From Octopus vulgaris (taxonomy: Eukaryota), in assembly GCA_951406725.2 (NCBI GenBank), contig OX597840.1, positions 13,640,001 through 13,704,000 of the forward strand: a stretch of DNA of 64,000 nt, read 5' to 3'. The notes beneath the pieces are model-generated. The model was not told the origin of the DNA. It saw nothing but the letters and a program-made list of their open reading frames with translations, and did not search any database. Within the stretch, counting starts at the first letter, position 1. Each line of letters opens with the position of its first letter. Of the stretch, positions 19,481 through 62,045 are shown piece by piece. The position numbers were made by a program, and so were the translations under genes.

Positions 19481-19769
19481 TTTCGTTTTTGGATTTGGTT
19501 TGCAAGATTCTTTATATGAATTCGTGTGTTGAAGCATATTCTGTTGTGTCTGGGGAGAGTCATTTTCTTTTTGTGCCTTATAATTTAATACACTCACTGG
19601 TAAGATTTCCACTTATTTCTTATTTTTATTTGCCTAAAATTTTCGTTGCGTCTTGCAACTTTTTCAATAGTCCTAAAATTTTCGTTGCAAGACGCATCGA
19701 AAATTTTAGGAGGCTAAAAATTAAAAATAAGTGGAAATTTTACCGGTGCGTGTGTTAAATTATAAGGCA
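19481..19769 (-). mobile_element. PLE-like terminal fragment with inverted 5' duplication and 15-bp TSD
   Basis: TSD taaaaatgaattatt at 19466-19480 and 19770-19784; inverted arms about 19572-19659 / 19685-19769; contains an HHR. Confidence 0.75.
19634..19670 (-). ncRNA. Minimal type I hammerhead ribozyme, U3:A8 variant
   Basis: cua-UUGAAAA-a-GUUGC aagac GCAAC-GAAA-AU-U-U-uag; palindromic helix III (AAAAUUUU); stem I only 3 bp. Confidence 0.65.
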
Positions 19770-19924
19770 TAAAAATGAATTATTCTTGTACAAACATGTC
19801 TTTAGCAACAATATATACTTATCCTTCATTTTATTTTAATAACCATCGTTTTATCATGTATAATATAATTACTACTATAGGTAAAATTTAGTGTGTTAAT
19901 TGTGTTTTTTTTTGTTTTTTTTCC

Positions 19925-20115
19925 CTCGCTCCACAAAAGCCGAACACCCTCTCGACCTGCCCTGCTCCCGCTTAGGAAGACTAAAGGAATATTTCAATTA
20001 ATCAGTTGGTAAGGGAGGTAACTTCTTAATTGACGCTGGCAAGAGTTATCTCTATTTACCATTTGAAGGTTAAGAACGGACAACACAAAACCCACAGCTG
20101 CCGCTGCAGGTCAGT
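19925..20115 (+). promoter_or_regulatory. Candidate promoter / non-coding first exon of TMEM69
   Basis: Local CpG enrichment in unique sequence; donor-like CAG|GTCAGT at 20109/20110; imperfect inverted pair AAGGGAGGTAACT (20011-20023) / AGTTATCTCT (20044-20053). Confidence 0.4.
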
Positions 20116-20436
20116 TATTTCACGATCTCTTTTTGTTCTAGGTTCCTTGTTTTTTTGTTGTTGGTCAGTTCAAAGCCTTCATATGTTTTAAAATAAATCA
20201 TTAATTAATAGATGTTAATTAGGGATCGCCGATCATTATATTCAACGCCCTAAATAAGACTTCTACTCGTCGAAGTACCTTTTCGAAAAAGAAAAAAAAG
20301 TTTCTTTGCACATCAAACAATCCGAAATTATCGGCACTGGTCACACATATACACAAGTGCATCTGTAGTTCATATATCCGAAGAAGAAGAAGAAGCACAT
20401 TCGGACATTAGAGCAGTGATATATATTTTAGGAAGT

Positions 20437-20791
20437 TGTTACGGCCGGTCTTGGAGTGACCCTTGGTTCCACACCCATAAAGCGCTTGGCAGTTTTGGCG
20501 ACCTGTCAAGACTCGAATGGCCCAAACTGCTAAGCGGTTTATAATTGCAAGGCCAGTGGTCACTCTGATACAAGCATTCATCAACAGATGGATATAGAAA
20601 GAGAGGTAGGCATAAGAATTCGTGGCGTAGATCAACACAAAAGGAACTGGACAAAGGGGGACATTCCTGGCAGAGTAGAAGTACAGAAGCGAAAAATTAT
20701 GCGACATGGAATTCAATTATAAGTGGCCGATACTCCGTGTTGGAGGGTTAAAGGCAGGAAAAAAATGGTCATTCTATGACCGGCCGTAACA
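20437..20791. mobile_element. Solo-LTR-like or MITE-like element, 355 bp, with TG...CA ends
   Basis: Terminal inverted repeats TGTTACGGCCGGTCttggagtgacc / ggtcattctatGACCGGCCGTAACA; no clear TSD. Confidence 0.6.
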
Positions 20792-20832
20792 GTTATCTTC
20801 ATGTGTGTGTGTGTATATATATATACATATAT

Positions 20833-20887
<55 letters not shown>

Positions 20888-21420
20888 CACATGTAGCTAT
20901 GTCAGAAAGATACGGGTTGGATAGACGTTTGCTTATTTTTATTTAATCTCTGTAGGAATTTAAGTTGCACACAAGAAAATTGAAAATTGGAATTTCAAAT
21001 ATTAGAGAAAGAAGAAAATGTTTACTTAAATTACGTTTATATATTTGTTTTACTTAAATGTTAAATCGAAAAAAAAAATTAAAGACGCTAAACGTTAGGA
21101 TTGCCTACAATGAATTACATAAATTTTTCTGATGTACTTTTACAATTTATTTTAACAACTATTGCTGCTCGAATACCTTCTTTAAGAAGCTAAATCCAAG
21201 ATCAAATAATTTAACTTCATTTTTTTTTCTTTTAGTATTACATAATCGGAGACAGTCTGTTGATTTTGGCTGCTATTTCTGAAGTCGTACGAGACTCTGT
21301 AGAAAGGCAACGGTCCTCGGCAAGTCAACAAACAACGTGGAAAATTTCTTCGTTGCTAAATTATTTAAAAGGAAGGTGTAAGCAGGTCAGATGCACCCGT
21401 ATATGTGTCAGTAGGGTGGG

Positions 21421-21597
21421 TATATTATCCCAAGTGTACAACATTATATATCCATCACGACTGGTCTTACCAATCGGTTTCGTTCTAGGTTCTCACCAAT
21501 CGATTGTTACTTAGCATTCCATTGTACCCCGGGTACGAAACCGATTGACAAGATCAGCTGTGAGGGATATATGATACTGTACACTTCGGACAACATA
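21421..21597. repeat. Degenerate inverted repeat (about 65-bp arms); probable old PLE fold-back with an HHR-like 3' half
   Basis: Arms about 21421-21489 / 21528-21597; hairpin gtaccccgggtac directly followed by GAAACCG. Confidence 0.5.
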
Positions 21598-21981
21598 TTT
21601 ATAGATAGGTAGGTAGATAGATAGAAGAAAAGATCCTATATTATTAAATCAGTCATTTATTGCGACTTCCTTTCTTTCTCTGGATTCTTTCTAATTTGCT
21701 GGGGATTTAACTGCTATTTATAGCATGTTGAGCACACTGGGAGTCATCGGTTGTTCGTGTTATTGGACGCTGCTCGTCACACGACCATGAGTTCGAATCC
21801 AGAAAATAGCGTCGCTGCAGCGTAAAAAAAAAAAAGCCGGTAAATGTATTCCTGTAGAATAGAGTCGGAAATTATCCAGTTCTTCAAGGACAGCTGCAGA
21901 AAAAGTTTCCGTTTTGTCTTTTTTCGGATTTACGTAAAAACCACAATTCTGAAGAATTTCGAGTGTTTGAAACAAATATTC

Positions 21982-22358
21982 GGATCTTTTCGGTTTGAAC
22001 GGCAGTTTTTTCTAGCAGTGTCATATCAAGTTCTCACCCATAATTATGACCCTAGTATCGATCTATTGCATTCTGTTTTAGGGTTAGGGTTAGTGGGGGA
22101 ACCCAATCTGTTTCTTAAACGAGGGACATATTCATACGGCACAGAATGTTTTTTTACCACAATTACACCTCATTGATTAGTTGAAATTGCAGAAATTGAA
22201 GAAAAAAAGCAACAAATATATTACAAACTATAGAATTTTCTCAATAAAGCCAAGAGAAAAAGATGTTTTATAAACACATTCTATCAGTATACGAAGTTTA
22301 AAATATTTTAGTTACCTAGAAATTATGTTAAAAACTGCTGTTCAAACCGAAAAGATCC
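21982..22358. mobile_element. MITE with about 29-bp TIRs, GG...CC ends and 8-bp TSD (Merlin-like)
   Basis: ggatcttttcggtttgaacggcagttttt / aaaaactgctgttcaaaccgaaaagatcc; TSD aaatattc at 21974-21981 and 22359-22366; internal TTAGGG repeats. Confidence 0.85.
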
Positions 22359-22371
22359 AAATATTCTTTTA

Positions 22372-22587
22372 TACTTTTTCTTTCATTTGTTTCAGTCATT
22401 TGACTGCGGCCATGCTGGAGCACTGCCTTTAGTCGAGCAAATCAACCCCAGGACTTATGCTTTGTAAGCCTAGTACTTATTCTACCGGTCACTTTTGCTG
22501 AACCACTAAGTGATGGGGACATAAACACACCAGCATCGGTTGTCAAGCAATGCTAGGGGGACAAACACAGACACACAAATACACAAG

Positions 22588-22641
<54 letters not shown>

Positions 22642-22800
22642 TACGACGGGCTTCTTTCAGTTTCTGTCTACCAAATTGACTCACAAGGCTTCGGTTGGCC
22701 AGAGACTATTGTAGAAGACACTTGCCCAAGGTGCCATGCAGTGGGACTGAACCTGGAATTATGTGGTTGGTAAGCAAGCTACATACCACGCAGCCACTCC
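22372..22800 (-). mobile_element. SINE family A
   Basis: Same consensus. Confidence 0.9.
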
Positions 22801-22967
22801 AGCCAATCAAAACGAAATTAATACATTATGGAAAAGGAGGGGCACCACTGCCTTTTATGTTCTTCAGTTTTCTTTTTCTGGTCGTATGTTACTTAAAACA
22901 AAGATCCACAGAAATTACAGTTTTTGGTGGACTAGATAATTTCCAACTGAAGTAGTTAATGTCATAC

Positions 22968-23415
22968 TGTGCCGGTGGCACATAAAAAACACCATTTGAA
23001 TGTGGTCAGTGCCAGTGCTGGTAGACTGGTCCTGTGCTGGTGGTACATAAAAAGCACCATTTGAGCGTGATCAATGCCATTGCTGCCTGACTGGTCCTGT
23101 ACCGGTGGCATGTAAAAAGTACCATTCAAGTGTGGTCGATGCCGGTGCTTGCAGACTGGTCCTGTGCTGGTGGCATGTAAAAAGTACCATTCAAGTGTGG
23201 TCGATGCCAGTACCACCTGACTAGCCCTCATGCTGGTGGCACGTAAAAAGCACCCACTACACTCTCAGAGTGATTGGCGTTAGGAAGGGTGTCCAGCTGT
23301 AGAAACTTTGCCAGATCGGATTAGAGCCGGGTGCAGCCTTCTGACTTGCCAGTCCCCAGTCAAACCGTTCAACCAATGCCAGCATGGAAATCAGATGTTA
23401 AACGATGATGATGAT
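22968..23415 (+). mobile_element. RTE 3' tail with about 5 tandem UTR units
   Basis: Repeated gccggtggca.ataaaaagcaccatt units plus (gat)n. Confidence 0.85.
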
Positions 23416-24547
23416 CAAGATAAATAGCATTGGTTATTTACAGTTAACATCAGCAATAATTATTGACTGAGAGAGAGAGATGCTGCTCTGAGCTTACAGA
23501 AAGCTATTGGTACGGCAACATGTGGTTGGCCCAAGGTGTCTGAAAACAAGTATGTTACATTCATGGCTAAGGAGGTTTGATGTGCTAGAAAATGCACCCA
23601 AATCACCCACTTTAACATTAGTGAATAAATGCTCTGATTCAATTACAAACTCTCTTATTAAACAACAACAGCAACAACACAAACATGAACAGCAGTAACA
23701 TAGAGAGTAAGTCAAAGACTGCAAATCCTGGGTGTTTAAAACCAAAATCCAAAATGTTGTTTGAAAAAAAATGTTGACATGAAAATTTACTACCGTTTTT
23801 CAGAAAACAAAAGTTGACAGGAAGTGCTCATTGCAATGAATATAGCATTATTAGATTTATTGGAACAAGAATTCCAGCCACATTGGAGCCTTTGAAATGT
23901 AAAATAAGCAATAAAAATAAAATTTCATGAAGATATATTCAAATTGGAATCCAGATTTATTTCATACCAAACAGGATGGTCCTGGGGTTTTGGTTACACA
24001 AAAACACAAGGCCAAACTTCATGCTGGCTTATGAGATTTCTTTACTATGGTCTTGGCAGATATCTTTGACAGTTGGCAGCATTATTTGCAGGGCTGTTAG
24101 CTGGAGAATTGGTATATCTGTAACAACAGATCTGTGATCCTTGTACAGATCCTTGTACAACTTGTGACTAGTGGAATACCATAGGTCTGTTAGTCAGAGC
24201 TGACTTCAGGTTACACAATACTAGCAATAAGTGATGAAAATAAGGGAGACGCTTTGTAGACACAGGATCTGCTAGAGACAGCAGCTAAATCTCCATCCAA
24301 TCACACTCTAGCAGCTTAAAAATTAAAAGCCCCATTGGCTAATGACTGAATAAAAAAATGATTCTAACAACTGACCTGAGGCTGCATAACAACACTGGCC
24401 TACACCTCTTTACATTCTTCTTTGGATAATGTAGTCCAGGACAGAGAATGCTCGAAGGACGGTCATGTTTAAGTTTCCTCTGAATAATTTTTTGGTTTTT
24501 CTGCTTATGTGAAAAAGAAATTTATTCTTCTTATAAGAATCGAAAAT

Positions 24548-24633
24548 GTAAGTATTTGGGTTTTTTTTTTAGTGCTAATTTACGTGTTCTTTTAATTCTC
24601 CTTTTAAAATCTGTTATTTTTTTCTTCTTTCAG
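24548..24633 (+). other. Candidate 86-nt intron upstream of the TMEM69 CDS
   Basis: GTAAGT donor at 24548, TGCTAAT branch-like motif, long polypyrimidine tract, TTTCAG acceptor ending 24633. Confidence 0.55.
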
Positions 24634-25273
24634 ATGTTAAGCTTAAGAACTTAAAAATGAAGGAAGAAGCCTCAACCAATCGTGTTTGCTCCAAGACACA
24701 TTGAATTCTAATACCAGTCACTAGAATTGTATTTAATTTAGGGATCATTTATTTTTTAAAAGTATTTATATTCTTTGCACTATTTTCCAGACTTTGACAT
24801 TAAGCCACAGCAGTATTATACAAATTTATGGTCCATTCTGACACAACTGTTTTATTAATCAAGAATTCATTACTTACACATCACTCTCTCATAATTAATC
24901 GAATTAGCTGTTAACCTCTGATCTCGGAATTGAGTTGAATTCTTGATCAAACCGTTGATATAAAGAGAAAAAAACAAACAAAAACTAACTTTTTAAAAAC
25001 TGTTATCAGTGCTCTAATGAATATTATTCAGTACCTAAAATTAGAATAGTGATTTGACAGAGAACGCAGAGTATCAACCAGTTTAATATTGTGCAATATT
25101 TTAGTTCAGTCGCTCTACAGAAAACAAATATTTTGTCATATTCTAAAGGGAGTTTCAGTTGTTCATTTGCTCATACTGTTGCAGAAATTGACTTTTTTTG
25201 CTTAATCAAAAAAAAAAAAAATTATAAATATATTAATTAATTGTAATTGAGCCATTTGTTGAAGTGTCCAAAA

Positions 25274-26125
25274 ATGTTGGCTTCCAGCACTGGTCATGCT
25301 TGGAAATTTATGCTTCCTTTGTTAACCACATGTCGTTATCATCATTGTTTGGTGTTACCCAAAGCTTTGTCCAGAATTGGCCAGCCTTCCATCACTGACA
25401 AATGCCTTGTCAGAATTAAAACTTTCTTTAATCCACTGTCAGAAAATTTTAGAAAAACTTCTACCTCTGCTTCCAACTGTAGTCTGTTAAAATCTTCCTC
25501 AGGACCTTTATCTTCACAGCTGTCTCCTGCGTATATGTCATCACCTGTTCCGTTCTGGAAATCCCTTGAATGTCGACATGCATCCTCTAGTTCTACAAAA
25601 GAAGAAGACAAATTTAAGATTATAATGGCAACATCTACATTAAAAGAACTCAGACATGCTCCTACACCTGCTTTAGTTCTCGGAATCTCAGGACTTATAC
25701 CTTTTGTGTCGTTCCCATTTTATATGTTCATGACCGACACTTACATGCCAGAAATGGCTTTGGCTCAAGCTACTTACGGTGCTGTGATTTTGTCATTTCT
25801 TGGAGGTGTCAGGTGGGGCACTACTATTGCATATAACAGCATCATCAAACCAGATTGGAATAACTTAGTCCAGGCTGTGGTGCCTTCCCTGCTTGGTTGG
25901 TCAGCAATTCAGCTATCTTGCCCTGTTTCAACAATGATACTGGCTGGCGGCTTTGCTTGCCTCGCCTACTATGACATGACTTTCACACCATATCTACCTT
26001 GGTTCAGAGCCTTGCGGTTGCTTCTCAGTGGCATTGCTGTGTTGGCCCTGTGCAGTGAGCTACTCTGTTACTTGATTCTGCTTTCAAATGCTGAAAAAGA
26101 AAGACGAGAAAACCAAACTTGCTAA
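25274..26125 (+). CDS. TMEM69: Transmembrane protein 69 (DUF3429 family), about 283 aa, single coding exon; basic/Ser-rich N-terminus resembling a mitochondrial targeting peptide
   Basis: Only long complex ORF in the window. Motifs PALVLGISGLIPF, YGAVILSFLGGVRWG and PWFRALRLLLS plus about 5 hydrophobic helices match TMEM69/DUF3429. First ATG at 25274 (the ORF track starts at a TTG); alternative ATG at 25310. AATAAA at 26473-26478. Confidence 0.92.
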   Translation: MLASSTGHAWKFMLPLLTTCRYHHCLVLPKALSRIGQPSITDKCLVRIKTFFNPLSENFRKTSTSASNCSLLKSSSGPLSSQLSPAYMSSPVPFWKSLECRHASSSSTKEEDKFKIIMATSTLKELRHAPTPALVLGISGLIPFVSFPFYMFMTDTYMPEMALAQATYGAVILSFLGGVRWGTTIAYNSIIKPDWNNLVQAVVPSLLGWSAIQLSCPVSTMILAGGFACLAYYDMTFTPYLPWFRALRLLLSGIAVLALCSELLCYLILLSNAEKERRENQTC

Positions 26126-26617
26126 TGAATGTGAAAATGATTCCTGCCACCCATTTAGGAGCCACTCCCTAAATGTTTAACTGAATTTTGTTTTGGAACA
26201 AGATTAACATCTGTGATGGTGCCTTTACTGAGTTGAGTCCATGTTATGTTCAAAATGTTGGGTTGTGTTCTTCCCCATTTCTTAAATAATGTGTTTTGTT
26301 TGTGTATAAATGTGAACTGCAAATTGCTCAGGTGCAAGGGAAGCCTTTACTACTTTTCATTGTGTGTGTGTGTGTGTATCTTATTTTCCAAGCGTTACGT
26401 CTGTATTTATGTGTGTATATACACTCAATTATTTGAAATTGAGACTTCTCTGTTGCTACTCTGAGTATTTTGAATAAATGATTAAACTCTGGCATATTGA
26501 GTCTTTTTCCTCTCTCATCTGGAAATTTAAATGCTTGCACACACACACACACACGCACGCATGCACACACCGATCCCTGTATATAATATATGTAGATGTA
26601 GGATTTTTTCTTTTTAA

Positions 26618-26951
26618 AGGAGCACTCCATTGGTTATGACAAGGGTCCCAGCTGATGCGATCAACGGAACAGCTTGCTCGTGAAATTAACGTGCAAGTGG
26701 CTGAGCACTCCACAGACATGTGTACCCTTAATGTAGCCTTCAGGGAGATTCAGCATGACACAGAGAGTGACAAGGCCGGTCCTTTGAAATACAGGTACAA
26801 CTCATTTTTGCCAGCTGAGTGGACTGGAGCAATGTGAAATAAAGTGACTTGCTCAAGGACACAATGCGTCGGCCGGGAATTGAATTCAGGACCTTACAAT
26901 CGTGAGCCAAATGCCCCTAACCACTAAGCCATGCACCTTCACAGGTGTGTG

Positions 26952-26982
<31 letters not shown>

Positions 26983-29590: not shown

Positions 29591-29596
29591 CTTGTA

Positions 29597-32811: not shown

Positions 32812-33750
32812 CAGGGGTCACCAAACTTTTTCCATGGTGCGCCAGATAACTGAGAGAATGATGTGTGCAGGCCACTTAAGCATTTTGCTCAATAGAATAC
32901 AGTAAATAAAGCAGCAAGCTGGCAGAACCGTTAGCATGCTGGGCAAAATGCTTAGCGGTATTTTGTCTGTCTTTGCATTCTGAGTTCAAATTCCGCCGAG
33001 GTCGACTTTGCCTTTCATCCTTTCGGGGTCGATAAATTAAGTACCAGTTACGCACTAGGGTTGATATAATCAACTTAATCCGTGTGTCTGTCCTTGTTTG
33101 TCTCCTCTGTGTTTAGCCCCTTGTGGGTAGTAAAGAAATAGGTATTTCATCTGCCTCTACGTTCAGAGTTTAAATTCTACCAAAGTCAATTTTGCCTTTC
33201 ATCCTTTCGGGGTCGATAAATTAAGTACCAGTTACGCTCTGGGGTCGATGTAATCAACTTAATCCCTTTGTCTATCCTTGTTTGTCCCCTCTATGTTTAG
33301 CCCCCTGTGGGAAATAAAGAAATAAGAATACAGTGAATAGACACAAAAAATAAAGACAACCAACATATTTATTTACCAAAAAGTTATCAAAGAAGACAAC
33401 ATTAGCAATAAGATAGTTATATCACATCCAATTCACACAAACTAAGTAGCAAAAAAGGGTAATGAGGTTTGTGAAACTGATGTTTAGCTTTTAAGATATT
33501 GATATTTGCTTTGGAATTGCTGCATCCAACCAAGAGAATTGCTTTCAAAAGTTCATCAGTCAACCCCGTTCGATGTGCTGACTTCACACTCTTCATTATT
33601 GAAAATGTTTGCTCACAGACATAAGTTGTTCCAAACACTGATGCCATACCAGAGGCAAATGAACTCTCATTGTAGACAGTCACACAAAAGGTACAGTGTG
33701 GTGACAGGCCAGGTGAACTGACTTTGCAGGCTGTAGTTTGGTGACCCCTG
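32812..33750 (-). mobile_element. Internally deleted hAT (Charlie-like) element with both TIRs; contains a dimeric family-C SINE at about 32911-33324
   Basis: TIRs caggggtcaccaaact / agtttggtgacccctg; FGTTYVCEQTFSIMKSVKSAHRTGLTD is the hAT dimerisation domain; SINE TSD agaatacagt(a/g)aata. Confidence 0.88.
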
Positions 33751-34921: not shown

Positions 34922-35598
34922 TACTCTCTTTTACTTGTTTCAGTCATTTGACTGCGGCCATACTGGAGCACTGTCTTTAGTCGAGCAAATCGACCCCAGG
35001 ACTTATTCTTTGGAAGCCTAGTGCTTATTCTATCAGTCTCTTTTGCCAAACCACTAAGTTATGGGGACGTAAACACACCAGCATCAGTTGTTGAGTGATG
35101 ATGGTGGTAGTGGGGGACAAACATACACACATACACACACATACATATACATACATATATATAGTAGAAATATGTTACGAAAAGAAAATATAAAATACAC
35201 GTGGAAATGTAAGGGTAAAATATGAAAAATCAACGAAAATGCATATTGCAAATAGAAAAAAGGCTCTTTATGACAGGTAATGACAAATATATACATTTAG
35301 ATTGAATGAGGTAGTAATACGAGTCATAAAAGTCATTATTATGACATGATTATAAGATGATAATAATGTAAGAGAACAATATATTAACCGGTGTTGTTGA
35401 AACGATGAATAGTTTTGCGTAAACCATGGTTCATTTTGTTCTCTTACTTTATTATTTTCTTATAATCATCTCATAATAATGACTTTTATGACTCGTATTA
35501 CTACCTCAGTCAATCTAAATGTATATATTTGTCACTACCTGTCATAAATAGCCTTTTTCTATTTGCAATATGCATTTTCGTTGATTTTTCATATTTTA

Positions 35599-35665: not shown

Positions 35666-36250
35666 ATGGAAATTGCAGATGTGTTACCAGTGCCGGTGGC
35701 ATGTAAGAGAACCTTCCGTTTCGCGACCGTTGCCAGCACCGCCCCGACTGGCCTTGTGCCGATGGCACGTAAAAAGCACCATCCGTTCGTGTCCGTTGCC
35801 AGCCTTGCCTGGCCCTCGTGCCGGTGGCACATAAAAAGCACCATCCGTTCGTGGCCGTTTGCCAGCTCTGTCTGGCACCTGTGCAGGTGGCACGTAAAAA
35901 GCACCCACTACACTCACGGAGTGGTTGGCGTTAGGAAGGGCATCCAGCTGTAGAAACATTACCAGATTAGACTGGAGCCTGGTGCAGCCTTCTGGCTTCA
36001 CAGACCCCAGTAGAACCGTCCAACCCATGCTAGCATGGAAAACGGACGCTAAACGATGATGATGATGATGATATATACACACACATATATATGACGGACT
36101 TCTCCCAGTTTCTGTCTACCAAATCCACTCACAAGGCTTTGGTCGGACCAAGGCTAAAGTAGGAGACAGTTGCCGAAGGTATCACGCAGTGAGAATGAAC
36201 CTGGAACAATGTAGTTGATAAGCAAGCTACTTACCACATAGCCACTCCTG
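34922..36250 (-). mobile_element. SINE family A split at its internal microsatellite by two later insertions
   Basis: 3' half at 34922-35160 and 5' half at 36085-36250. Confidence 0.85.
35163..35600 (-). mobile_element. PLE-like fragment with about 165-bp fold-back in (TA)n
   Basis: Arms 35214-35379 / 35436-35600. Confidence 0.65.
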
Positions 36251-43736: not shown

Positions 43737-43780
<44 letters not shown>

Positions 43781-44100
43781 ATAATAAATCTCTGAACGAG
43801 GTATAAACAGTAACTGCATGACAATGTGAGGTATATTTGCCATCTCAATATGGCTAACCACTAAGGGTGGATGTTACTGTAGCTTGTAGCCCCAGGAGAA
43901 CATCGTCTCCAGCTGGCTTTAGGCACACTTTCTGTGCCCTTATGGTATTTGCAAAGGGAGGTCATCCTTCCCTCGTCAACCTAAGTGATACGCACAGACC
44001 GCAGCTTCTGGGTATTGACCCGTCATCAGCGCACGACAATCACCGGTTTTCGAGGAAAGGAGTCCCAATGCAAATATTCATATCCTTTTTCCAGTAACTT
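43781..44100 (-). mobile_element. PLE-like terminal fragment ending at (TA)n
   Basis: Contains an HHR; its 3' end abuts the microsatellite. Confidence 0.6.
43991..44035 (-). ncRNA. Minimal hammerhead ribozyme (A15.1G mutant copy)
   Basis: cgugcg-CUGAUGA-c-GGGU caau ACCC-a-GAAG-cugcg-GUC-ugugcg. Confidence 0.7.
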
Positions 44101-44154
44101 TTCGTCACTGATCAGTTTGCTGAAAGGGGGAAGAAACTTGCAAGAATGGTGCGT

Positions 44155-44552
44155 GTGAGCTGGCAGAAACATTAGCATGCCGGACGAAATGGTTAGTGTT
44201 ATTTTGTCTGCCGCTATGTTCTGAGTTCAAATTCCACCGAGGTCAACTTTGCCTTTCATCCTTTCGGGGTCGATTAAATAAGTACCAGTTATGCACTGAG
44301 GTCGATATAATCGACTTAATCCATTTGTCTGTTCTTGTTTGTTCTCTCTATGTTTAGCCCCTTGTGGGTAGTGAAGAAATAGGTATTTCGTCTGCCTTTA
44401 CTTTCTGAGTTCAAACTCTGCCGAGGTCAACTTTGCTTTTCATCCTATCGGGGTCGATAAATAAAGTACCAGTTACGCACTGGGGTCGATGTAATTGACT
44501 TACTTCCTTTGTCTGTCCTTGTTTGTCCCCTCTATGTAGGCAATAAAGAAAT
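44155..44552 (+). mobile_element. SINE family C dimer, 17-bp TSD
   Basis: aagaatggtg(c/t)gtgtga at 44142-44158 and 44553-44569. Confidence 0.88.
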
Positions 44553-45276: not shown

Positions 45277-45574
45277 TTTGTAAGAGATAACTCAGGTGAT
45301 CCAATGCTGCAAATTTAGATAATTCATTTGTTGTTCTGCCAATTTCTTTTCTCTGCTTCTTCCTCTTCATCTTACTAACATCTGACTTGCCTTTCCATTA
45401 ATTCTCATCTTTCACATCCTGTTAAGAAATGCTGTTAAGACTCCAGTGGTTTCTTATGGAACTCTGTTCGTTTTTGTTACCCAGATAAACATGACCTTAA
45501 TTCTTTTAACTCTTGTCTTGATTATTTACATTATTTACATTTGACAGACACTTGTCCTCATCTTGTTTGTTGTT

Positions 45575-45620
45575 AACACAACGTTTTGGGTGATATACCC
45601 TAAAACCTTCATCAGGTGTC
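45575..45620 (-). ncRNA. Degenerate minimal hammerhead ribozyme within a repeat spanning about 45520-46137
   Basis: gacac-CUGAUGA-a...GGGU auauc ACCC-AAAA(G12A)-CG-U-U-guguu. Confidence 0.6.
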
Positions 45621-45646
45621 AATTCCAGGCAGTGACCTGAATAATG

Positions 45647-45692
<46 letters not shown>

Positions 45693-46521
45693 TAATAATA
45701 ATAATAATAAATCTCTGGGCTTCTGATCTTAACTGATTGGAAGTGTTATTATGTACGTTGTTTTGTCTTGGTATAAAAGATGGGCTACAGCAAATATTCT
45801 GCTCAATACCACAGATTTGCTTGTCAGTTGTTTGACCTTAACCAGTTGAGCATGTCCCTTAGTGGCTGACGATATGTGCATCTCTGATCACGAGTAGAAG
45901 TAGTGGGGGAGCATCATAGCTATTTGTTGAGAAGGATTCTTTGGGGTTTGGATAATTCACCTTTGGAAACATGGGTGGTTCGTTCAACATCCATAAAACA
46001 TCCCTTATTCAAGGACATTTTGAGCAGGATGGCCTACCTGACTGGAAGAAAATTCTAACGGGGCCCCACCTGCAAGGTCATGTGCTGTTTATCTTGACAT
46101 GAGATCACCATGTTGCGCACATATGGTTGTGATGCAAGTACTAGGCTTGCAAAAAATAAGTCCTCAGAAGGATTTGTTCAACTAAATGGCGGTGCTCCAG
46201 CATGACTACAGTAAAATGACTGAAACAAGTAAAAGGATAAAACACAAAAGCCATGGACTATTAATATGCGAGGAACGAAGAATAACAACAGTGATGCGGC
46301 CATATACAGAAGAACCACCATTTTGGGCCAAACGAGGAACACAAGAGATCCAAATGATGGCAGTGTTGTTGTTAGTGTTGGTGATTGTGATGTAATGCTG
46401 ATGCGGATAATGGTGGCAGTGATGGTGGTAGTGGCACTCATTGTGGCACTAATGGTATAGTGTACTGAATTGTATTGGAGGTAGTTGGGGAGGTAGCGGT
46501 GATTTTAATGGTGTGATGGAG

Positions 46522-47797: not shown

Positions 47798-47800
47798 TTT

Positions 47801-48192: not shown

Positions 48193-48236
<44 letters not shown>

Positions 48237-48254
48237 ACAAAAAATGTGTGTGTA

Positions 48255-48865
48255 CCCAATGACTGGTATAGCAGCACCATAGTCAACTGCTAAAAGGGTA
48301 AAGGTGATGCTCAAGATAGAAATAACTACAGGGGTATCAAACTGCTGGATCAGGTGATGAAGGTCATGGAGAGGGTCATAGCCCATCCCACTAGGGAGAG
48401 AGTTTGCTTAGATGAGATGCAGTTCAGTTTTGTGCCGGGTAGAAGCACCACTGATGCCATATTCCTAGTTGGACAACTGCAGGAGGAGAAATACCTAGCT
48501 AAAGATAAACCCCTATACTTAGTTTTTGTGAACTTGGAGAAAGCCTTTGACAGGGTCCCCCGATCCCTTATCTGGTGGGCGATTCGGAAACTAGAGATTG
48601 ACAAATGGTTAATAAGGGCTGTACAGGCCCCATACAGAGAGACCGTTAGTAAGATTAGGATTGGCAACGAGTATAGTGAAGAATTCCGGGTAGGGGTCCA
48701 CCAAGGTTCAGCCCTCAGTCCCCTTCTATTCCTCATAGTCCTCCAGGCAATAACAGGAATTCAAGATGGGTTGCCCCTGGGAGCTCCTCTATGCTGATGA
48801 CCTGGCCCTCATAGCAGAATCACTACCGGAACTAGAAAAGAAATTTTGGGTGTGGAAGCAAGGTC
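48255..48865 (+). mobile_element. RTE-clade LINE reverse transcriptase core fragment (frameshifted)
   Basis: NYRGIKLL, QFSFVPGRSTTDAIF, FVNLEKAFDRVPR and GVHQGSALSPLLF, then LYADDL in another frame. Confidence 0.93.
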
Positions 48866-48954
48866 TACACACACACACACACACGTGATCTCTTAAGCAC
48901 CACCAGCTCAAATATTTTCTCCTCTGTCTCCCCTCTTTGGGATCTTTCCTTCTT

Positions 48955-48989
48955 GTTTCCGACGAAGAGCTCCGCTCGAAACGTTAAAC
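48955..48989 (+). ncRNA. Minimal hammerhead ribozyme (U4C variant) in a PLE-like fragment at 48885-49108
   Basis: guuu-CCGACGA-a-GAGC ucc GCUC-GAAA-CG-U-U-aaac; palindrome AACGUU; the fragment ends in (TA)n. Confidence 0.7.
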
Positions 48990-49111
48990 CCTCCTTCCCT
49001 TCTTTCCTGAGCGTCAATAATACTTTAATTGTTCCACGTCCTGCGTTGCTGTGTTTTTTTCTCTTTTTTTTCTCTTTTTTTCTGTGTTTTCTTGTTTGGA
49101 TTAACTTTATA

Positions 49112-49198
<87 letters not shown>

Positions 49199-53164: not shown

Positions 53165-53435
53165 TTAAAATAATAAGGGTGAAAAATTGAATATTAATTT
53201 GATTAATATCGATGTAAAACCAGTGGTCTAGCATATAGAAAAATCTGAAGATTCAGAAAAATTATATTACCTACATATAAGAGGGAAGACCACTAAGTGG
53301 GCATCCATATGCTAGAAGTCGACCCCCTTTGGTTTTACCACTAAGAAAGGAACATTCTTTTCTTAGTGGTAAGACCATAGGGGGTCGACTTCTAGCATAT
53401 GGATGTCCACTTAGTGGTCATCCCTCGTATATGTA
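53165..53435 (-). mobile_element. PLE-like fragment with about 78-bp fold-back in (TA)n
   Basis: Arms 53272-53349 / 53357-53435. Confidence 0.65.
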
Positions 53436-53553
53436 TATATAAATAGCGAGGATGATCTGGTTCTTGACTGAAGATTAAAGGCTTCAAATGACCCGTCCGT
53501 GTTTTTTGTATCGTCTATTTGGATGTTTTGCGTTCTTGTCCCAATTGTATTTT

Positions 53554-53594
<41 letters not shown>

Positions 53595-54059
53595 GATCGT
53601 TTGTCCGTTGCCAGCCTCACCTGGCCCCCATGCCATTGGCACGTAAAAGCACCATCCACTCGTGTCCGTTGCCAGCCTCGCCTGGCCCCCGTGCCGGTAG
53701 CACGTAAAAGCGCCATCCGTTCGTGACCGTTTGCCAGCTCTGTCTGGCACCTGTGCAGGTGGCACGTAAAAAGCACCCACTACACTCATGGAGTGGTTGG
53801 CGTTAGGAAGGGCATCCAGCCGTAGAAACACTGCCAAATCTGACTGGGCCTGATGAAGCCTTCCGGCTTCACAGACCCCAGTTAAACCATCCAACCCATG
53901 CTAGCATGGAAAACGGACGCTAAATGATGATGATGATGATGATGATGATGTATATATACACACATACTAAAAATCTATACAGAAACATATACATATACAC
54001 ATTAACTCTCACAAAAAAATATGCAAATATACACACAAACACAAGATATACACATCAAT

Positions 54060-54103
<44 letters not shown>

Positions 54104-54832: not shown

Positions 54833-54877
<45 letters not shown>

Positions 54878-55185
54878 TGTGTGTTGAGAAGCTTGCTTCT
54901 CAATCACATGGTTTCGGGTTCAGTCCCACTGTGTGACACCATGGGCAAGTATCTTCTACTATAATCTCAGACTGACTGAAGCCTTGTGAGTTGATTTGTA
55001 GATGGAGACTGAAAGAAACCTGTTGTATATATATGGAATTTTGTCAGTGAACAGATTGCAGTCTCAAAGTGACAAAAAAAATTTTGACAAATTAAATTCA
55101 AATGTTGAAGTGAATCTAATGGTTTTTGTGTGTGTTTCAAATGGCTTATAAACTCCTTCCACGCTGCAACTGTTTGCATATATAT

Positions 55186-55230
<45 letters not shown>

Positions 55231-55232
55231 TA

Positions 55233-55515
55233 CAAAGTGAGATAGGGGTTATGAGTGTAACTCACTATGGGATATCAGTTATCCAATATACTGCTGGTGA
55301 AGTACCCAAAATGCAAATACATGAATGCTTATAATTGCAATGCAATTAATTCATTTATTGTATCGGATGGGCGAAGGTAAAATATTCATAATACAAATAA
55401 GAAAATGGAGGAACAGACTCCTTTCAATCATCGACTTAAGCAGTTAATAAATAATATGAATTGGTAATATCTGTAAGTCGATGATTGAAAGGAATCTGTT
55501 CCTCCATTTTCTTAT
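55233..55515 (-). mobile_element. PLE-like fragment with 42-bp fold-back in (TA)n
   Basis: Arms 55397-55438 / 55474-55515 with one mismatch; homologous to 13333-13562. Confidence 0.65.
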
Positions 55516-55528
55516 ATATATATATTTG

Positions 55529-55916
55529 TAGGCGCAGGAGTGGCTGTGTGGTAAGTAGCTTGCTAACCAGTCACATGGTTCCGGGTTCAGTCCCACTGCG
55601 CGGCATCTTGGGCAAGTGTCTTCTGCTATAGCCCCGGGCCAACCAATGCCTTGTGAGTGGATTTGGTAGACGGAAACTGAAAGAAGCCTGTCGTATATAT
55701 GTATATATATGTATGTATGTGTGTGTATATGTTTGTGTGTCTGTGTTTGTCCCTCTAGCATTGCTTGACAACCGATGCTGGTGTGTTTACGTCCCCCGAT
55801 AGAATAAGTACTGGGCTTACAAAAGAATAAGTCCCGGGGTCAAGTTGCTCGATTAAAAGGCGGTGCTCCAGCATGGCCGCAGTCAAATGACTGAAACAAG
55901 TAAAAGAGTAAAGAGT
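55529..55916 (+). mobile_element. SINE family A
   Basis: Same consensus. Confidence 0.9.
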
Positions 55917-57871
55917 AAATATATATATATATATATGGCACGTAAAAAGCACCATCCATTCGTGGCCGTTGCCAGCCTTGCCTGGCCCCCGTGCCGGTGG
56001 CACATAAAAAGCGCCATCCGATTGTGGCCGTTTGCCAGACTTGTCTGGCACCTGTGCCGGTGGCACGTAAAAAGCACCCACTACACTCTCAGAGTGGTTG
56101 GCGTTAGGAAGGGCATCCAGCCGTAGAAACATTGCCAGATCAGACTGGGCCTGGTGCAGCCTTCTGGCTTCCCAGACCCCAGTTGAACCATCCAACCCAT
56201 GCTAGCATGGAAAGCGGACGCTAAACGATGATGATGATGATGATGATGATGATATATATATATATATATACACATTCTTTTATTCTTTTGCTTGTTTCAG
56301 TCATTTGACTGTAGCCATGCTGGAGCATCACCTTAACGAGTCTTTTTAGTCAAAGAAATTGACTCCAAGACTTATTCTTTGAAAGTCTTGTACTTATTCT
56401 GTGGGTCTCCTTTGCCGAACTGCTATGTTATGGGGATGTAAACACACCAGCATCAGTTATCAGGTGATGGTTGGGGGACAAACACAGACACTCCTTTTGT
56501 TGTTATTGCACAGTCTAAGGTTAGTTCTGATTGACCTAACTAATGATAAAAGGGTTGAAACAGTGAACATTGCATTTTTTTTTTGTTTATAATGGGATTA
56601 TATTGTCAAAGTGATTTGAGAGAAATTAAGGTGCTGTTACAAGCAATTGGAATGACCATTCAGAGAAGGTGATAACTGGCTACCATGGAGAGGGTCCCTT
56701 AACTATTGTTGTTTATCTTCAGGTTAACCCTTAAACATTCGGATTACTCTGTTAAATGTAAAGCTTATTTATATACATTCTTTCAAATTAATCCTGCATT
56801 ATCTCATAGCTTTGGGATTGCAATTATGTGATTGTTTATTTTTAGGATGACATTGTAGGATAAATATGAGAGGCTGGATCTAGCAGTTTTGAGTATAAAT
56901 CAGATAGAATATTTAGGCTAGATGTGACCAGTTTAAATGTTAAAGGGTGCAATCTGATTGATCAGACCTATGATGAAAAAATGTTCCATTCATGTCTGTC
57001 CTATCTATTTGTGTATCCAAGACTACAAACCATTATGTCCAATTTTCCTACTTTTTTAAAGACTAGTAGTGTGTAGGTTGACTAATAACTCAAATTTTAA
57101 CAGTGAAATTGTTTTGTACTTAAAGAGAAGAGCAGTAACTAGTGTTGAAATATTTCTAAATTTATGGATATGCATCTAATTTTTGTGGCTTTATGTTTGG
57201 ACTATTCAAAAAAAAAAAAGCATAAGTGAATTTAGGAGTTATAGAATTTAGTTAAATTAAATGAAATTGTGACATTCTAAAATCGTGAGGTAATATAAAA
57301 TTATGCAAACTTGATGAAATTCTTGAAGTGGGAGGAATGTTATTAAATTAGTGAAGTGAACTGAGGATGACATGGAATTAAAATAGATTAGGAGAAAAAT
57401 CAGAAAAATGTTAATCATTGTAGAAGAGCAAAAGGGATTTGCAGTTATGTTAACAATATTTTGAAGTGAGGATTGCTAATCATGTTATGCTATGTGACAA
57501 GAGAGAACGAGGTTAAAGAAATATATGAGTATGTAAGTTAAATTAAAAATATTTCAGTGTATTCTAAATAACTGAAGTCAAGATAATCCTTCATTTAGAA
57601 GAAGATTAAAGAAGCATACTCAAAAATGTGATCTGAGAAATGAGAAAGGAAGAAAAAAGGTTTTGAAGATCTAATAAGAACATGCAGAACTGATAGGGCT
57701 ACTCAAAGGTGCATATATAAATGTATGCATATACGCACACAGAGTTATACATACATGCATATATATATATAAGTTCAGCAAAAATTTAGATTCAAATGAA
57801 TATGGTACTTAATTTGGATGCACCAGAATTCTGTATGGTGTTATCCATATAAATCCAATAAGCTTATTTTG

Positions 57872-57988
<117 letters not shown>

Positions 57989-58628
57989 GTACACATAAAC
58001 ATCAACATATACTTGTATACCCACTAATATTCATGCGTATCTGCAACACCACACATTCACACATACACATTCACACATACATGCAGATATTTATCTATAC
58101 AAGCACAGGTACACTCGATCTTATGATTTATGTCAATTTGGATGGCGGCATTTATGTAAAGGTCAGGTCATGCACTAACAAATCTATTTTTCTTGTAATT
58201 AACTGTACTTTTACCTATTTAAAAAAGTTTGTGATGTATTGTCACTTTGTCAGATGTTCCACTTGTAATAACATAATCCAAATACTTGTTTCATTGCTGG
58301 ACCATCGGCAACTAAATTACAAAAACCATTCAAGAACTCTCATCCTGGTCTGTGGAGGGTGAATGGACACCTTGAAAGGACAATAGAGAATGCCTATTTA
58401 TGAATGCTGTCTAAACAGTTCTGAAACCTCTTAAATCACAACTCTGAGTCTCACGATTTGAGTTGTTAAAAGTGGTTTCTGATGAGTAACAGAGAAACAG
58501 TCTTCAGGCAAAACTATTCAAAATCAGATCCAATATATAATTGGTTATAATAATTAGTTTTCATGATTGGTTATTACAATTGGTTATTAAGGTTGGTTAT
58601 TATGATTTGTTATTATGATTGGTTATTA

Positions 58629-59194
58629 TTGGGTTGTCCGGAAAGTTCGTGCCGATTTATAGTAGCTTACATTTTGACTTATTTTAGAACATGGTTGAGT
58701 CCATAAAATAGGATTTGACTACACCTCCATTTAGAGCACAGTTTAAGCTATCTTTTCGTGGAAGAAGGTTTATGTTACTATAACCTGTGTTAATTCTGTA
58801 ACCCTTTAAAATGGAAGCTAAGAAAGTTCATTTTCAGCACTTGATGCTTTGGGAACCAGACAAAAATTGCTGCAGCTTGGCTGGGATGTGTTACCCCACC
58901 CTCCATATTCACCAGATATTGCTCCTTCGGATATTCACTTATTCAGGTCTCTGCAGAATAGTCTTAATGATAAAAATTTCAATTCCTTGGTTGACGTAAA
59001 AAGATACCTTGATGAATTCTTTGCCATGAGACTACCTCAATTCTGGGAAGAGGGTATTTTCAAGTTAAAGGAAAGATGGAGACGCATTGTGCAACAAAAT
59101 GGTTCATATTTGGTTGATTAAAAATGTAATGGCAAGTATTTATTGACCTTTTTCTTTCCTTTAAAAATCGGCACGATCTTTCTGGACAACCCAA
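58629..59194 (+). mobile_element. Internally deleted mariner with both TIRs and TA TSD
   Basis: TIRs ttgggttgtccggaaagttcgtgccgattt / aaatcggcacgatctttctggacaacccaa; ATG at 58811 (MEAKKVHF) joined out of frame to LPHPPYSPDIAPSD...NGSYLVD* ending 59121. Confidence 0.95.
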
Positions 59195-59599
59195 TAGTAC
59201 ATTGAAATTGCGTATAAAATCTTTTGGAAAACATTTTAATCTATTCATTACCAAGTGCAGAAACTCGTGATATTCTCATGTGAGAAAATATTTTCTTCTT
59301 TTTAGTTTTTATTGGTGAACACCTGAATATTTTTAAAAATGGGACAACCTTTCAGCATAGGATATTGAAAAATCAATTAATTAACAAAAAATATTTGCTT
59401 CCTTGTTACTGTGAGAAATTTCCCATTAAACAGTGATGGAAGTGTCTACAAGAATTCACCAGTTGTGGTCTTTTGTTCAAAATTGTAAAATGTTGCAGTA
59501 AAATATTGTACTTCTTGGAGTGTTATTGATTGTTTCTCCTAGAACTGATAAAAGGAGTCAACTGATCTTACAATTGTTATTATCTTTTAGACATCAGAT

Positions 59600-60975
59600 A
59601 GTGAAGTACCAAGTATCTGAGTGTTTCAATGTATATATAAATTGCAAAAATTTATTTTTTCTTTGGAAGGTTTTCAGAGAGCCAAAATAGCTTTCTTATT
59701 CCACTGTCATTTGCAAGAAAAAGTTCAGCAAGACAAATTCTTTAAAGTGCAGATATTGGGGTTGTTACAATTACAAAAAGATGAGGAATTTTGTGTGTCC
59801 ATATTGAAAAGAATAAATATATACTGGCTCCAAAAGCAATGAAGATTTTTGTGCAACTGCTACTTTTACTAAACATCAGATTATATCTATTGTCTATGGA
59901 GAAATGTCTATGTAAAAATTTCAAAAGCTCCAAGTAATATAAGAAAAATCTCTTAAACTGTAGGATAATTGTATTACAGAATCTTTCATTCCATATTTTT
60001 TGTATTTATGTATTTAGTGTTATTCCTTATGTAAAGAATTTTGTCTTTGAAGCCTCCATCATTAAATGGATCATTGCAATAATGAATAGCATCATCAAAA
60101 GATTCTTTGTTTGAGGCTATGTGTTCACTGATGTTACCGAGTTTGTGTAGAATGGTTGAAATTTATATAAGTGATCTATAATTTCTCATTAAGCTTATTA
60201 AAAAGACAGTATTTACTAATTGACAGTTCTTTCCAAGAAATTAATAATACTCAGATTCATATCAACTGTGATTTTTTAATCTAATTCTTTTGAAGATATT
60301 GATAAACTCCTTCCTAATAAGAATCCATTGAATGGCCACTCATCTTTTGAGAATGAATAGTCAATCCTCACTGTAAAGATTGTCCTCAATAGATCAGAAC
60401 CTCTTCTGAAGTAAATCTAAATTTATAATCCTATTAATTCAAAATCCTTGACCATCATAAGATCTCATAGCTACATCAAACAATACCAGATCAATATGTT
60501 TACCTCCTCTACACACACATTCATAGCAAGAATTATTGTAAAATAGGATAGGTTTCTTAGAGTACATAATGATATTAATGTCATAATCACTAACTAGAAT
60601 AAAACATCGTATTTGGTTATTGCCAGAAAGAACTTTCCTCCTTCAAAATGCATTCATAAGAATGCTTATTACCTGGTATTACTGAACCACTGCTGATAAA
60701 TAGACTATTATTCCATAACAAAAGAAGAATGGCATGATTAATGTTAACCTGATAAAATCTAAAACTTTTTGCAATGGTTTCACCTATTTTACCTTCAAAT
60801 GGTTTAGTAATATTGATGATAATAATAATAAACATCATTGTAAATTCATGTAGTTTGAGCATGTAGAGTTTTGGCCATCTACTGTAGTAGCAGCAATAGT
60901 AGTAATAGCTATACAGTTGTGTTAGATGGGATGCAGTCCATGTAAGACGGGGGAAATTTTCTTCATGAAACAATG
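59600..60975 (-). mobile_element. Decayed Neptune-type Penelope-like retroelement (RT, Cys linker, start of GIY-YIG)
   Basis: Minus strand, in order: FHEENF, IIMYSKKPILFYNN, FDVAMRSYDG (60451-60480), LYSED*L (about LYRDDGL, 60364-60378), IRKEFINIFK, KITVDMNLSIINFLE, FLHRHF, CNCNNPNICTL (59749-59775), SYFG. Confidence 0.8.
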
Positions 60976-61811
60976 GAATAATTCCAACAGAAACATACAC
61001 AGTTATTTTACAGGAAATGTAGTAATAACAACCATTGTGTGTATCCTTTGCATTATTTCCACCAAATTGTTGTTCCTTGTGCGTTTATATAACAATGGAA
61101 CTACAGAGCAGGCAGTGAAGGCATGCATGCAGCCAGCTCTTAGATTACCCTGCAACTCTACTGATTTATATATATATTATAGAGATTTTCTGTTTCCTCT
61201 TTGCTGTCAGCAGGAGGTCCTTGCTTTGAGGAGCTTCAGTCGTGATTTCCGTTTTCTCTTTCTCTGGTGCAGTGCTTCATACCCTTCAGCAATTCTTTCA
61301 TCTCTTATTTCTCCTCTTTTTACCCAGCAGGAAACTTCCTATCATATAATAATGTATGGTCTGTCTTAACATTACCAGTAAACATCTACATTTACTCCAA
61401 TTAATGTCTTCTTTACTCTTCTTTCAACATTTTCTTCTTTTCTCCTCCTCTTTCTTCTTGTCTTTCAACTTCTTTTATTCTAATTTCCTTTTCATTCTTT
61501 CCTTCATTTTCTCTTGTTTCATTCCCTCTGTTGTAAAGATTTTCTATTCTCCCTTCCTTTCCCTTTTTTAGTTACTTCTTCTTTCATTCCCTTTTTAATT
61601 AGCCATTCATTCTTTTTATTTCACATCTTTTCCTTTCCACAAGCATTTTCCTTCCCATTGCCCTGATAATTTCCAACATTTCTCTCTCTTTCAACATATA
61701 CAAGCCTTTTCAAGAGTCACCTTTATAATCCTAAAACCATTTTCCCTTCTTTTAGTGAAAATGTGAAATGATAACAGCACACACACATTATGAGTGTGTG
61801 TGTGTGTGTGT

Positions 61812-62045
61812 AAAGAGTATTCAAAGTGGTGTACAGATATTGTATATCCAGGGAAAAGAGGCAGTCAGAATTTTGGATAATTCTTTATTAGCGCTTTCGT
61901 TCATTTAAACAAACTCTTCAAGACAAAAATTAAGACCAAAATGATCTTAATTTTGGTCTCAATTTTTGTCTTGAAGAGTTCGTTTAAACGAATGAAAGTG
62001 CTAATAAAGAATTATCCAAAATTCTTAGTGCCTCATTTTCCTCCA
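61812..62045 (-). mobile_element. PLE-like fragment with about 92-bp fold-back; both arms contain an HHR
   Basis: Arms 61851-61942 / 61950-62041 with a 7-nt loop, lying between (TG)n and (TA)n. Confidence 0.75.
61882..61929 (-). ncRNA. Minimal hammerhead-like ribozyme; mirror copy on + at 61963-62010
   Basis: Two-arm consensus uuuuugu-c-UUGAAGA-GUUCG uuuaaa CGAAC-GAAA-GCGC-U-A-auaaaga. Confidence 0.6.

What the first reader, a model, noticed from the sequence alone, without database searches (positions are those of the whole stretch)
19634..62010. Five different minimal hammerheads, all with a self-complementary helix III and most with core variants
Seen: 19634 (- ; U3:A8, helix III AAUU), 43991 (- ; CUGAUGA, near-palindrome CUGCGG), 45575 (- ; ACGU), 48955 (+ ; U4C, ACGU) and 61882/61963 (U3, AGCGCU). 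Stems I and II are unrelated in sequence but pair in each. Established: minimal PLE HHRs with palindromic helix III cleave as dimers, and positions 3 and 8 form a tertiary pair, so U3:A8 is a compensatory change. Inference: the family consensi are or were active dimeric ribozymes, while single copies carry inactivating changes (G12A, A15.1G).
Basis: partly seen in the sequence, partly recalled or inferred. Interest (0 to 1): 0.72.

Follow-up and report, generated by a model that had tools for sequence, protein, structure and literature searches.

The report
Five Penelope-type hammerhead ribozyme relics
The five motifs are real hammerhead-ribozyme shapes carried by five unrelated, repeated jumping-gene families of a known kind; these single copies are likely dead leftovers, and several of their odd core letters are shared by whole families rather than being decay, though cutting is untested.

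Summary
All five motifs are at the stated places, and each belongs to its own repeat family in this 2.8-Gb animal genome. The families show Penelope-like element (PLE) hallmarks: fixed 3' end, variable 5' truncation, inverted 5' copies, one-sided tail. Two trace to PLE coding sequence. One (43991) is a 353-nt non-LTR retrozyme with a canonical, not minimal, hammerhead. U3:A8 (93 of 100 listed), U4C (8,059 exact matches against 3,124 U4) and the 8-nt core CUUGAAGA (61882) are family traits. In the retrozyme lineage, stems, the 3:8 pair and the helix III palindrome covary across subfamilies, which supports past selection for a dimer-capable ribozyme. No window copy has a same-strand partner, and the two palindromic copies are predicted to fold back over their ribozyme. 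About 2.2 such motifs per 64 kb is the genome average, so the window is ordinary. Minimal dimeric PLE hammerheads and U3:A8 were published in 2014, and this scan has noted the theme many times in this genome and others. Cleavage was not shown.

The parts
19481..19770 (.). Head-to-head insertion of family F19634: 5'-truncated PLE end (minus strand, with one-sided tail) joined to an inverted shorter copy; 14-bp target duplication at 19467-19480 and 19771-19784
   Evidence: family links to a GIY-YIG ORF in L294 and L319
19634..19670 (-). Minimal type I hammerhead, U3:A8 core, bulged base before G10.1-C11.1, helix III AAUU, 3-bp stem I; predicted cut between 19637 and 19636
   Evidence: stem II pairing probability 1.0 alone, 0.0 inside the palindrome
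43777..44110 (-). Solo, slightly less than unit-length copy of a ~353-nt non-LTR retrozyme (family F43991); ends approximate
43985..44043 (-). Canonical-type type I hammerhead with long stem I; family helix III ACUGCAGU; this copy has private A15.1G; subfamily has C10.1.A11.1; predicted cut between 43997 and 43996
45523..45620 (-). 3' end of family F45575, truncated at the start of stem I; contains the hammerhead 45620-45575 with private G12A and a broken stem II
45621..45710 (+). Inverted 5' piece of the same element: end of the tRNA-like head (B-box region) plus (AAT)n
48883..49100 (+). Short element of family F48955 between (CA)n and (TA)n microsatellites; ends approximate
48955..48989 (+). 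Minimal hammerhead with family-level U4C, helix III ACGU; otherwise intact; predicted cut between 48985 and 48986
61814..62046 (.). Head-to-head insertion of old family F61882; tail on the left arm only; ends approximate
61882..61929 (-). Hammerhead-like motif, 8-nt core CUUGAAGA (extra base, or U3.G8 with a bulged C), helix III AGCGCU
61963..62010 (+). Second arm of the same motif, helix III AGUGCU (CpG decay)

Best explanation
The five sites are single, likely inactive genomic copies of the hammerhead-bearing ends of five unrelated repeat families, two of which link to Penelope-like element (PLE) coding sequence while the other three were likely copied by PLE enzymes. Shown: family membership, PLE-type insertion structure, core letters per family, covariation in the retrozyme lineage. 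Inferred mechanism: a PLE reverse transcriptase starts at a fixed site about 100-220 nt downstream of the hammerhead (two start sites give the one-sided tail), usually stops early, and often adds an inverted 5' copy, leaving short solo or head-to-head stubs. In the source elements, which lie in tandem, two hammerheads on one transcript likely pair through their palindromic helix III and cut after H17. This is likely efficient for the 8-nt retrozyme palindromes and weak or protein-assisted for the 4-nt ones. U3:A8 keeps the 3:8 pair. U4C and CUUGAAGA likely slow the ribozyme and were tolerated because cutting is not needed for each insertion. After insertion the copies decay neutrally (G12A, A15.1G, CpG loss).
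For: Families: (40-81 scored matches each). PLE hallmarks: copy-specific palindrome centres, target duplications and one-sided tails, 5' inversions. Coding links: GIY-YIG ORF end about 640 nt upstream of the F19634 hammerhead, same strand in L294 and inverted in L319 (PF01541, E 5e-8); L021 and L029 share 409 nt at 85% of PLE-like ORF upstream of the F45575 hammerhead (tblastn E 3e-9 and 3e-11 to this genome's RT+GIY-YIG ORFs). Retrozyme: 353-nt tandem trimer at 99.7-99.9% identity with a perfect core and no ORF (L357). Covariation in 19 distinct rows: 91.5% cells paired against 82.9% shuffled and 23-51% slid, 8 pairs changed on both sides, pair 3:8 C-G 10/U-A 5/U.G 4, helix III centre GC 8/AU 5/CG 4/other 2; palindromic in 94 of 100 listed matches (by eye). 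An intact 781-aa RT+GIY-YIG element carries another U3:A8 hammerhead. Literature: PMC4209133, PMC8557442, PMC11167929, PMC7229834.
Against: No cleavage or expression evidence: no run on record as RNA, and no copy in the 800-kb sample began exactly at N1.1 (38 hits over three families, low power). No ORF link was found for F43991, F48955 or F61882. The F45575 link rests on 2 same-strand loci of 29 and has no Pfam hit. The dimer fold is not favoured over two open monomers for 4-nt palindromes (-5.4 vs -11.4, -20.7 vs -22.4, -5.7 vs -7.6 kcal/mol). Covariation was tested in one lineage only; its counts are cells, not events, and the search pattern fixed several columns. Pair 10.1-11.1 is unpaired in 9 of 19 rows. 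Some C4 subfamilies also have a broken stem I. Variation within F61882 is mostly CpG decay.
Confidence: 0.8

Rival explanations
1. The variant-core families (U4C, CUUGAAGA, C10.1.A11.1, sister A6U) were catalytically dead while they spread; the fold persisted as a protein-binding or promoter-linked structure, or by descent alone.
For: Hammerhead mutants do not affect insertion by the anole PLE in vitro, and no reads started at its cut site (PMC11167929). U4C lowers activity considerably in vitro (PMC3088659). Several C4 subfamilies lose stem I pairs. The A6U sister family had 8 or more copies in 800 kb.
Against: U4C still supports viroid infectivity (PMC3088659). The canonical U4 state sits in a younger, tighter group nested among C4 copies (mean distance 0.138 vs 0.225; 4 label changes against 15.5 shuffled; root uncertain), and stems keep covarying in subfamilies with variant cores.
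Confidence: 0.3
2. The 43991 retrozyme hammerhead cuts mainly as a monomer, using 2 bp of helix III plus loop 1-loop 2 contacts; the palindrome is secondary.
For: A monomer can form 2 helix III pairs; monomeric coral (about 0.8 per min) and mussel (about 0.1 per min) retrozymes cut in vitro (PMC7229834).
Against: The two central loop bases change together among CG, GC and AT, which only a dimer explains; the dimer fold is predicted at -27 to -32 kcal/mol against -10 to -16 for two monomers; axolotl retrozymes need dimers.
Confidence: 0.25
3. The motifs at 19634 and 61882 are chance matches inside AT-rich foldback (MITE-like) DNA transposons.
For: Both lie in long inverted repeats; stem I at 19634 is 3 bp; the 61882 core is irregular; no ORF was found for F61882.
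Against: Centres differ in every copy and many copies are one-armed; a tail is on one side only; F19634 continues upstream into a GIY-YIG ORF; stem I of F61882 uses G.U pairs that work on the sense strand only.
Confidence: 0.05

Closest known systems
Minimal hammerheads of metazoan Penelope-like elements (Cervera and de la Pena 2014, PMC4209133; parts 1-2 of 4 read)
   Same: Type I, palindromic 15.2-16.2, bulged base before G10.1-C11.1, many families per genome, mostly solo or close opposite-strand pairs, U3-A8 variant already reported
   Different: Family-level U4C and the 8-nt core CUUGAAGA are not in the text I read; its supplements were not seen
Lunse, Weinberg and Breaker, RNA Biol 14:1499 (PMC5785218; not held, seen only as cited in PMC6765202)
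   Same: Small hammerhead variants of PLEs that cleave as dimers (title and citing passage)
   Different: Could not check whether it lists U4C, U3.G8 or insertion cores; it may
Non-LTR retrozymes (Cervera and de la Pena 2020, PMC7229834, passages and section 14; Li et al. bioRxiv 10.64898/2026.07.22.740005, part 1 of 5 and passages)
   Same: F43991: ~353-nt non-coding unit, tandem dimers and trimers, canonical type I hammerhead; mussel units are 350-390 bp; PLE origin proposed
   Different: Helix III palindrome switches among three forms by subfamily; circles and cleavage not shown here; neither main text contains the word octopus
Poseidon element PAc of Anolis (Frangieh 2024, PMC11167929; parts 1-2 of 4) and PLE insertion structure (Craig 2021, PMC8557442; passages)
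   Same: Internal RT start, two 3' ends (tail), inverted 5' copies, AT-rich and microsatellite targets
   Different: In F19634 and the 781-aa element the hammerhead lies 0.6-1.1 kb past the ORF stop, not at the ORF start
Schistosoma Sm-alpha SINE-like elements (as described in PMC6765202, section 11 part 2; original paper not held)
   Same: F45575 joins a Pol III-type head to a hammerhead and occurs as a tandem (L030)
   Different: Here the hammerhead is minimal and the unit is linked to PLE coding sequence

Membership tests
Type I hammerhead ribozyme | Core CUGANGA...GAAA...UH on three helices, open at helix I | tested here: met
   Family forms of F45575, young F43991 and the U4 form of F48955 are canonical; F19634 has U3:A8
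Type I hammerhead ribozyme | Canonical 7-nt core in F61882 and in the C4 form of F48955 | tested here: not met
   CUUGAAGA in 33-38 of 38 arms per column; C4 in 8,059 exact matches
Type I hammerhead ribozyme | Covariation of stems and of pair 3:8 | tested here: met
   F43991 lineage only; C-G, U-A and G-C at 3:8 across unrelated families. The other four families were not tested this way
Type I hammerhead ribozyme | Self-cleavage after H17 | not testable with these tools
   No raw RNA reads
Minimal dimeric PLE hammerhead | Palindromic helix III too short to close in a monomer | tested here: met
   0 monomer pairs for AAUU and ACGU, 1 for AGCGCU; F43991 has 2 and is not minimal
Minimal dimeric PLE hammerhead | Same-strand tandem partner for dimer formation | tested here: inconclusive
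   None in the window; tandems exist elsewhere for F43991 and F45575 (L030)
Penelope-like elements (EN+) | RT plus C-terminal GIY-YIG ORF upstream of the pLTR | tested here: inconclusive
   GIY-YIG for F19634; PLE-like ORF fragment for F45575; none found for the other three; no intact partner recovered for any of the five
Penelope-like elements (EN+) | 5' truncation, inverted 5' copy, one-sided tail | tested here: met
Non-LTR retrozyme (F43991) | 170-400 nt non-coding tandem unit with type I hammerhead | tested here: met
   353-nt spacing, no ORF
Non-LTR retrozyme (F43991) | Expressed as circular RNA | not testable with these tools
   The head-to-tail joint also stands in probable DNA runs
tRNA-derived SINE (F45575 head) | tRNA-like head with A and B boxes | tested here: inconclusive
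   Box-like motifs seen by eye against recalled consensus; ARAGORN finds 0 genes in 7 of 7 loci

The most novel reading that the evidence does not exclude
Competing Penelope and retrozyme lineages in one genome use their helix III palindrome as a self-recognition code (AAUU, ACGU, AGCGCU, ACAUGU; ACUGCAGU, ACUCGAGU, ACUAUAGU among sister subfamilies), so hammerheads dimerise only with their own kind, and lineages repeatedly tune cutting speed through core changes (U4C, U3.G8, C.A at 10.1/11.1, an inserted base) that remain active in the cell.
Probability: 0.2. Interest if true: 0.6.

Novelty: new member of a known kind. Interest (0 to 1): 0.3.

Why it matters
The useful residue is a natural test set: thousands of copies fixing U4C or other core changes, and a retrozyme lineage whose dimer palindrome covaries. 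These make an open question testable: whether hammerhead cutting matters for Penelope-type mobility in the cell, and whether dimer pairing is lineage-specific.

Tried and rejected
Rfam scan at E up to 10: no hammerhead family in the 150 of 245 rows shown. Descriptor hit at 13178: rejected as A-rich chance; it was not searched for copies. A Pfam model I recalled for the PLE thumb region is not in the library. GIY-YIG search: the best hits are dominated by one 781-aa family with its own U3:A8 hammerhead; none of 50 loci examined tied an ORF to the five families. Spacings of 3.58, 1.63 and 1.38 kb between F43991-type hammerheads held no PLE ORF. U4 as CpG decay of C4: rejected, the states are linked to other diagnostic sites (p down to 6e-9). 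My early note that C4 is one subfamily was wrong; unselected C4 copies span several. A second, overlapping hammerhead upstream of the F19634 core: dropped, the upstream letters differ in long copies. Sequencing runs: no RNA holder listed; the depth fall across the cut site is also in probable DNA runs, so it is uninformative. Copies starting exactly at N1.1: none seen among 38 hits. F61882 pattern gave only 3 exact matches, too few for a tally; 38 arms from 20 loci were used. Look-ups by sequence in earlier findings: nothing. Paper searches; none showed a report on these families, but Lunse 2017 and Ferbeyre 1998 were not held and no supplements were read. A scripted tally of positions 12, 15.1 and 10.1/11.1 and a scripted search of the window for other families' motifs were not run; three element ends are therefore approximate.
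Full report
Setting. The window is G000:C27:13640001-13704000 in a 2.8-Gb animal genome, likely an octopus (earlier scan notes and my recall of its repeats; not tested). It is rich in microsatellites and dispersed repeats.

Observation. All five motifs are present in type I order. A descriptor allowing one core change gave 6 hits against 0.10 in resampled sequence, so they are not compositional chance. One hit (13178) is likely spurious, and the 45575 copy was missed because it has G12A and two U.C mismatches in stem II. The window is not special: the same descriptor finds 27 hits in 800 kb from 80 places, 2.2 per 64 kb. Profile hits in that sample were 11 for F45575 (about 38,000 genome-wide), 24 for F48955 with its sisters (about 84,000), 3 for F43991, and 0 for F19634 and F61882.

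F19634. The majority core is U3:A8: 93 of 100 listed matches of 1,611, with 4 C3.A8, 2 U3.G8, 1 U3.U8 and no C3-G8 (by eye). The palindrome centre differs in each of the 20 of 24 loci resolved. Copies picked by the tail alone include one-armed forms, target duplications and a tail on one arm only. The window copy has a 14-bp duplication. Long copies run upstream through a low-complexity tract to the end of a GIY-YIG ORF, on the same strand in L294 and inverted in L319 (PF01541 E 5e-8). This is the inverted, 5'-truncated PLE insertion described in PMC8557442 (passages).

F61882. It has the same head-to-head build with variable centres and a one-sided tail, and it is old (77-94% identity to the window copy). 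In 38 arms from 20 loci the core is C36 U33 U35 G34 A38 A37 G35 A34, so the odd core is the family state. Stem I pairs only if one base is left extra; the core can be read as C3-G8 with an inserted U, or as U3.G8 with a bulged C. Natural insertions near C3 impair cutting under standard conditions (PMC3088659, passages). No ORF partner was found.

F48955. Exact matches number 8,059 with C4 and 3,124 with U4. In 20 plus 20 copies taken in chromosome order, the two states are linked to other sites (p down to 6e-9). U4 copies are tighter (mean distance 0.138 vs 0.225) and mostly nest among C4 copies, though the root is uncertain. So U4C is a lineage trait and canonical U4 may be a later return. 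Some C4 subfamilies have also lost stem I pairs. U4C is a known natural viroid variant with low activity in vitro.

F45575. The family hammerhead is canonical and minimal; G12 is present in 13 of 15 unselected copies covering it (by eye). Upstream lie (AAT)n and a tRNA-like head, in sense orientation in 6 and inverted in 3 of 17 unselected hits; L030 is a tandem of the whole unit. The window copy carries an inverted piece of that head, which indicates that head and ribozyme were on one RNA. Earlier notes said this unit is the end repeat of a coding PLE. My check agrees in part: L021 and L029 share 409 nt (85%) of PLE-like ORF upstream on the same strand, and L005 has it inverted; that is 3 of 29 loci, with no Pfam hit.

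F43991. This is a 353-nt non-coding unit found solo, as more-than-unit copies and in tandem; L357 is a trimer at 99.7-99.9% identity with a perfect core. It fits non-LTR retrozymes (PMC7229834). A loose pattern gave 2,016 matches. Across 19 distinct rows from 30 loci plus the window, 91.5% of cells pair against 82.9% shuffled, and 8 pairs change on both sides. Pair 3:8 is C-G, U-A or U.G in all rows, and the two central bases of helix III are GC, AU or CG in 17 of 19 and palindromic in 94 of 100 listed matches. Caveats: rows are related, so events are few (about two switches among three palindromes), and the pattern fixed the outer helix III pairs. Pair 10.1-11.1 is unpaired in 9 of 19 rows, including the window's subfamily (C.A). 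A15.1G is private to the window copy.

Mechanism. Published work says minimal PLE hammerheads do not cut alone and cut weakly as dimers (PMC4209133), and that the anole PLE hammerhead needs the element's protein and is dispensable for insertion in vitro (PMC11167929). Nearest-neighbour energies agree: the dimer fold wins for 6-8 nt palindromes and not for 4-nt ones (tertiary contacts are not modelled). In the window no motif has a same-strand partner of its family. In the palindromic copies stem II pairing falls to 0 once the other arm is included: from 1.0 at 19634 and from about 0.5 at 61971; at 61921 it was 0 in both contexts. These copies are therefore likely inactive whatever their core. 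I found no evidence of cutting: no RNA run on record, and contig depth behaves alike in probable DNA runs.

Verdict. Real, well supported, and largely known: PLE minimal hammerheads and U3-A8 were reported in 2014, retrozymes in 2020, and their PLE origin in a 2026 preprint. This scan holds 145 notes with these words in at least 31 genomes. Five paper searches showed no report of these families, but the key variant survey (Lunse 2017) and all supplements were unseen, so I do not claim the core variants are new. The covarying palindrome and family-fixed U4C deserve a bench test. Interest 0.3.

Noticed in passing
window 25247-26125 (+): Uninterrupted 292-aa frame with DUF3429 (PF11911, E 6e-32); looks like an intronless TMEM69-like gene (name recalled).
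   Followed up: partly
window 48294-48797 (+): LINE-type reverse transcriptase fragment (RVT_1, E 2e-15) just upstream of the 48955 element; unrelated to it as far as seen.
   Followed up: partly
window 906-1442, 35257-35558, 53272-53435: Further long inverted repeats (99%, 94%, 93%) with no hammerhead found by my descriptor.
   Followed up: no
L271-L288: Young PLE family with intact 781-aa RT+GIY-YIG ORFs and a U3:A8 hammerhead (helix III ACAUGU) about 0.8-1.1 kb past the stop; a good candidate for bench work.
   Followed up: partly
L191, L205, L229, L375, L401, L417, L421, L422: Abundant sister family of F48955 with A6U and a compensatory G-C to C-G change in stem I.
   Followed up: partly
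   Followed up: no
L276, L283: U4C hammerhead with U10.1.U11.1 and helix III AGUACU about 500 nt downstream of a GIY-YIG ORF, so U4C also occurs on a coding PLE.
   Followed up: no
L181, L187, L195: F19634 copies inserted into the (AAT)n tract of F45575 copies.
   Followed up: no
L113: 19 profile hits to the F43991 model in one 3-kb locus; the printout was cut and I did not resolve it.
   Followed up: no
window 22967-23254, 35690-35905, 53602-53777, 55936-56078; 32957-33324, 44200-44537: Dispersed 62-65 nt tandem arrays and 184-nt dimers of common repeats.
   Followed up: no
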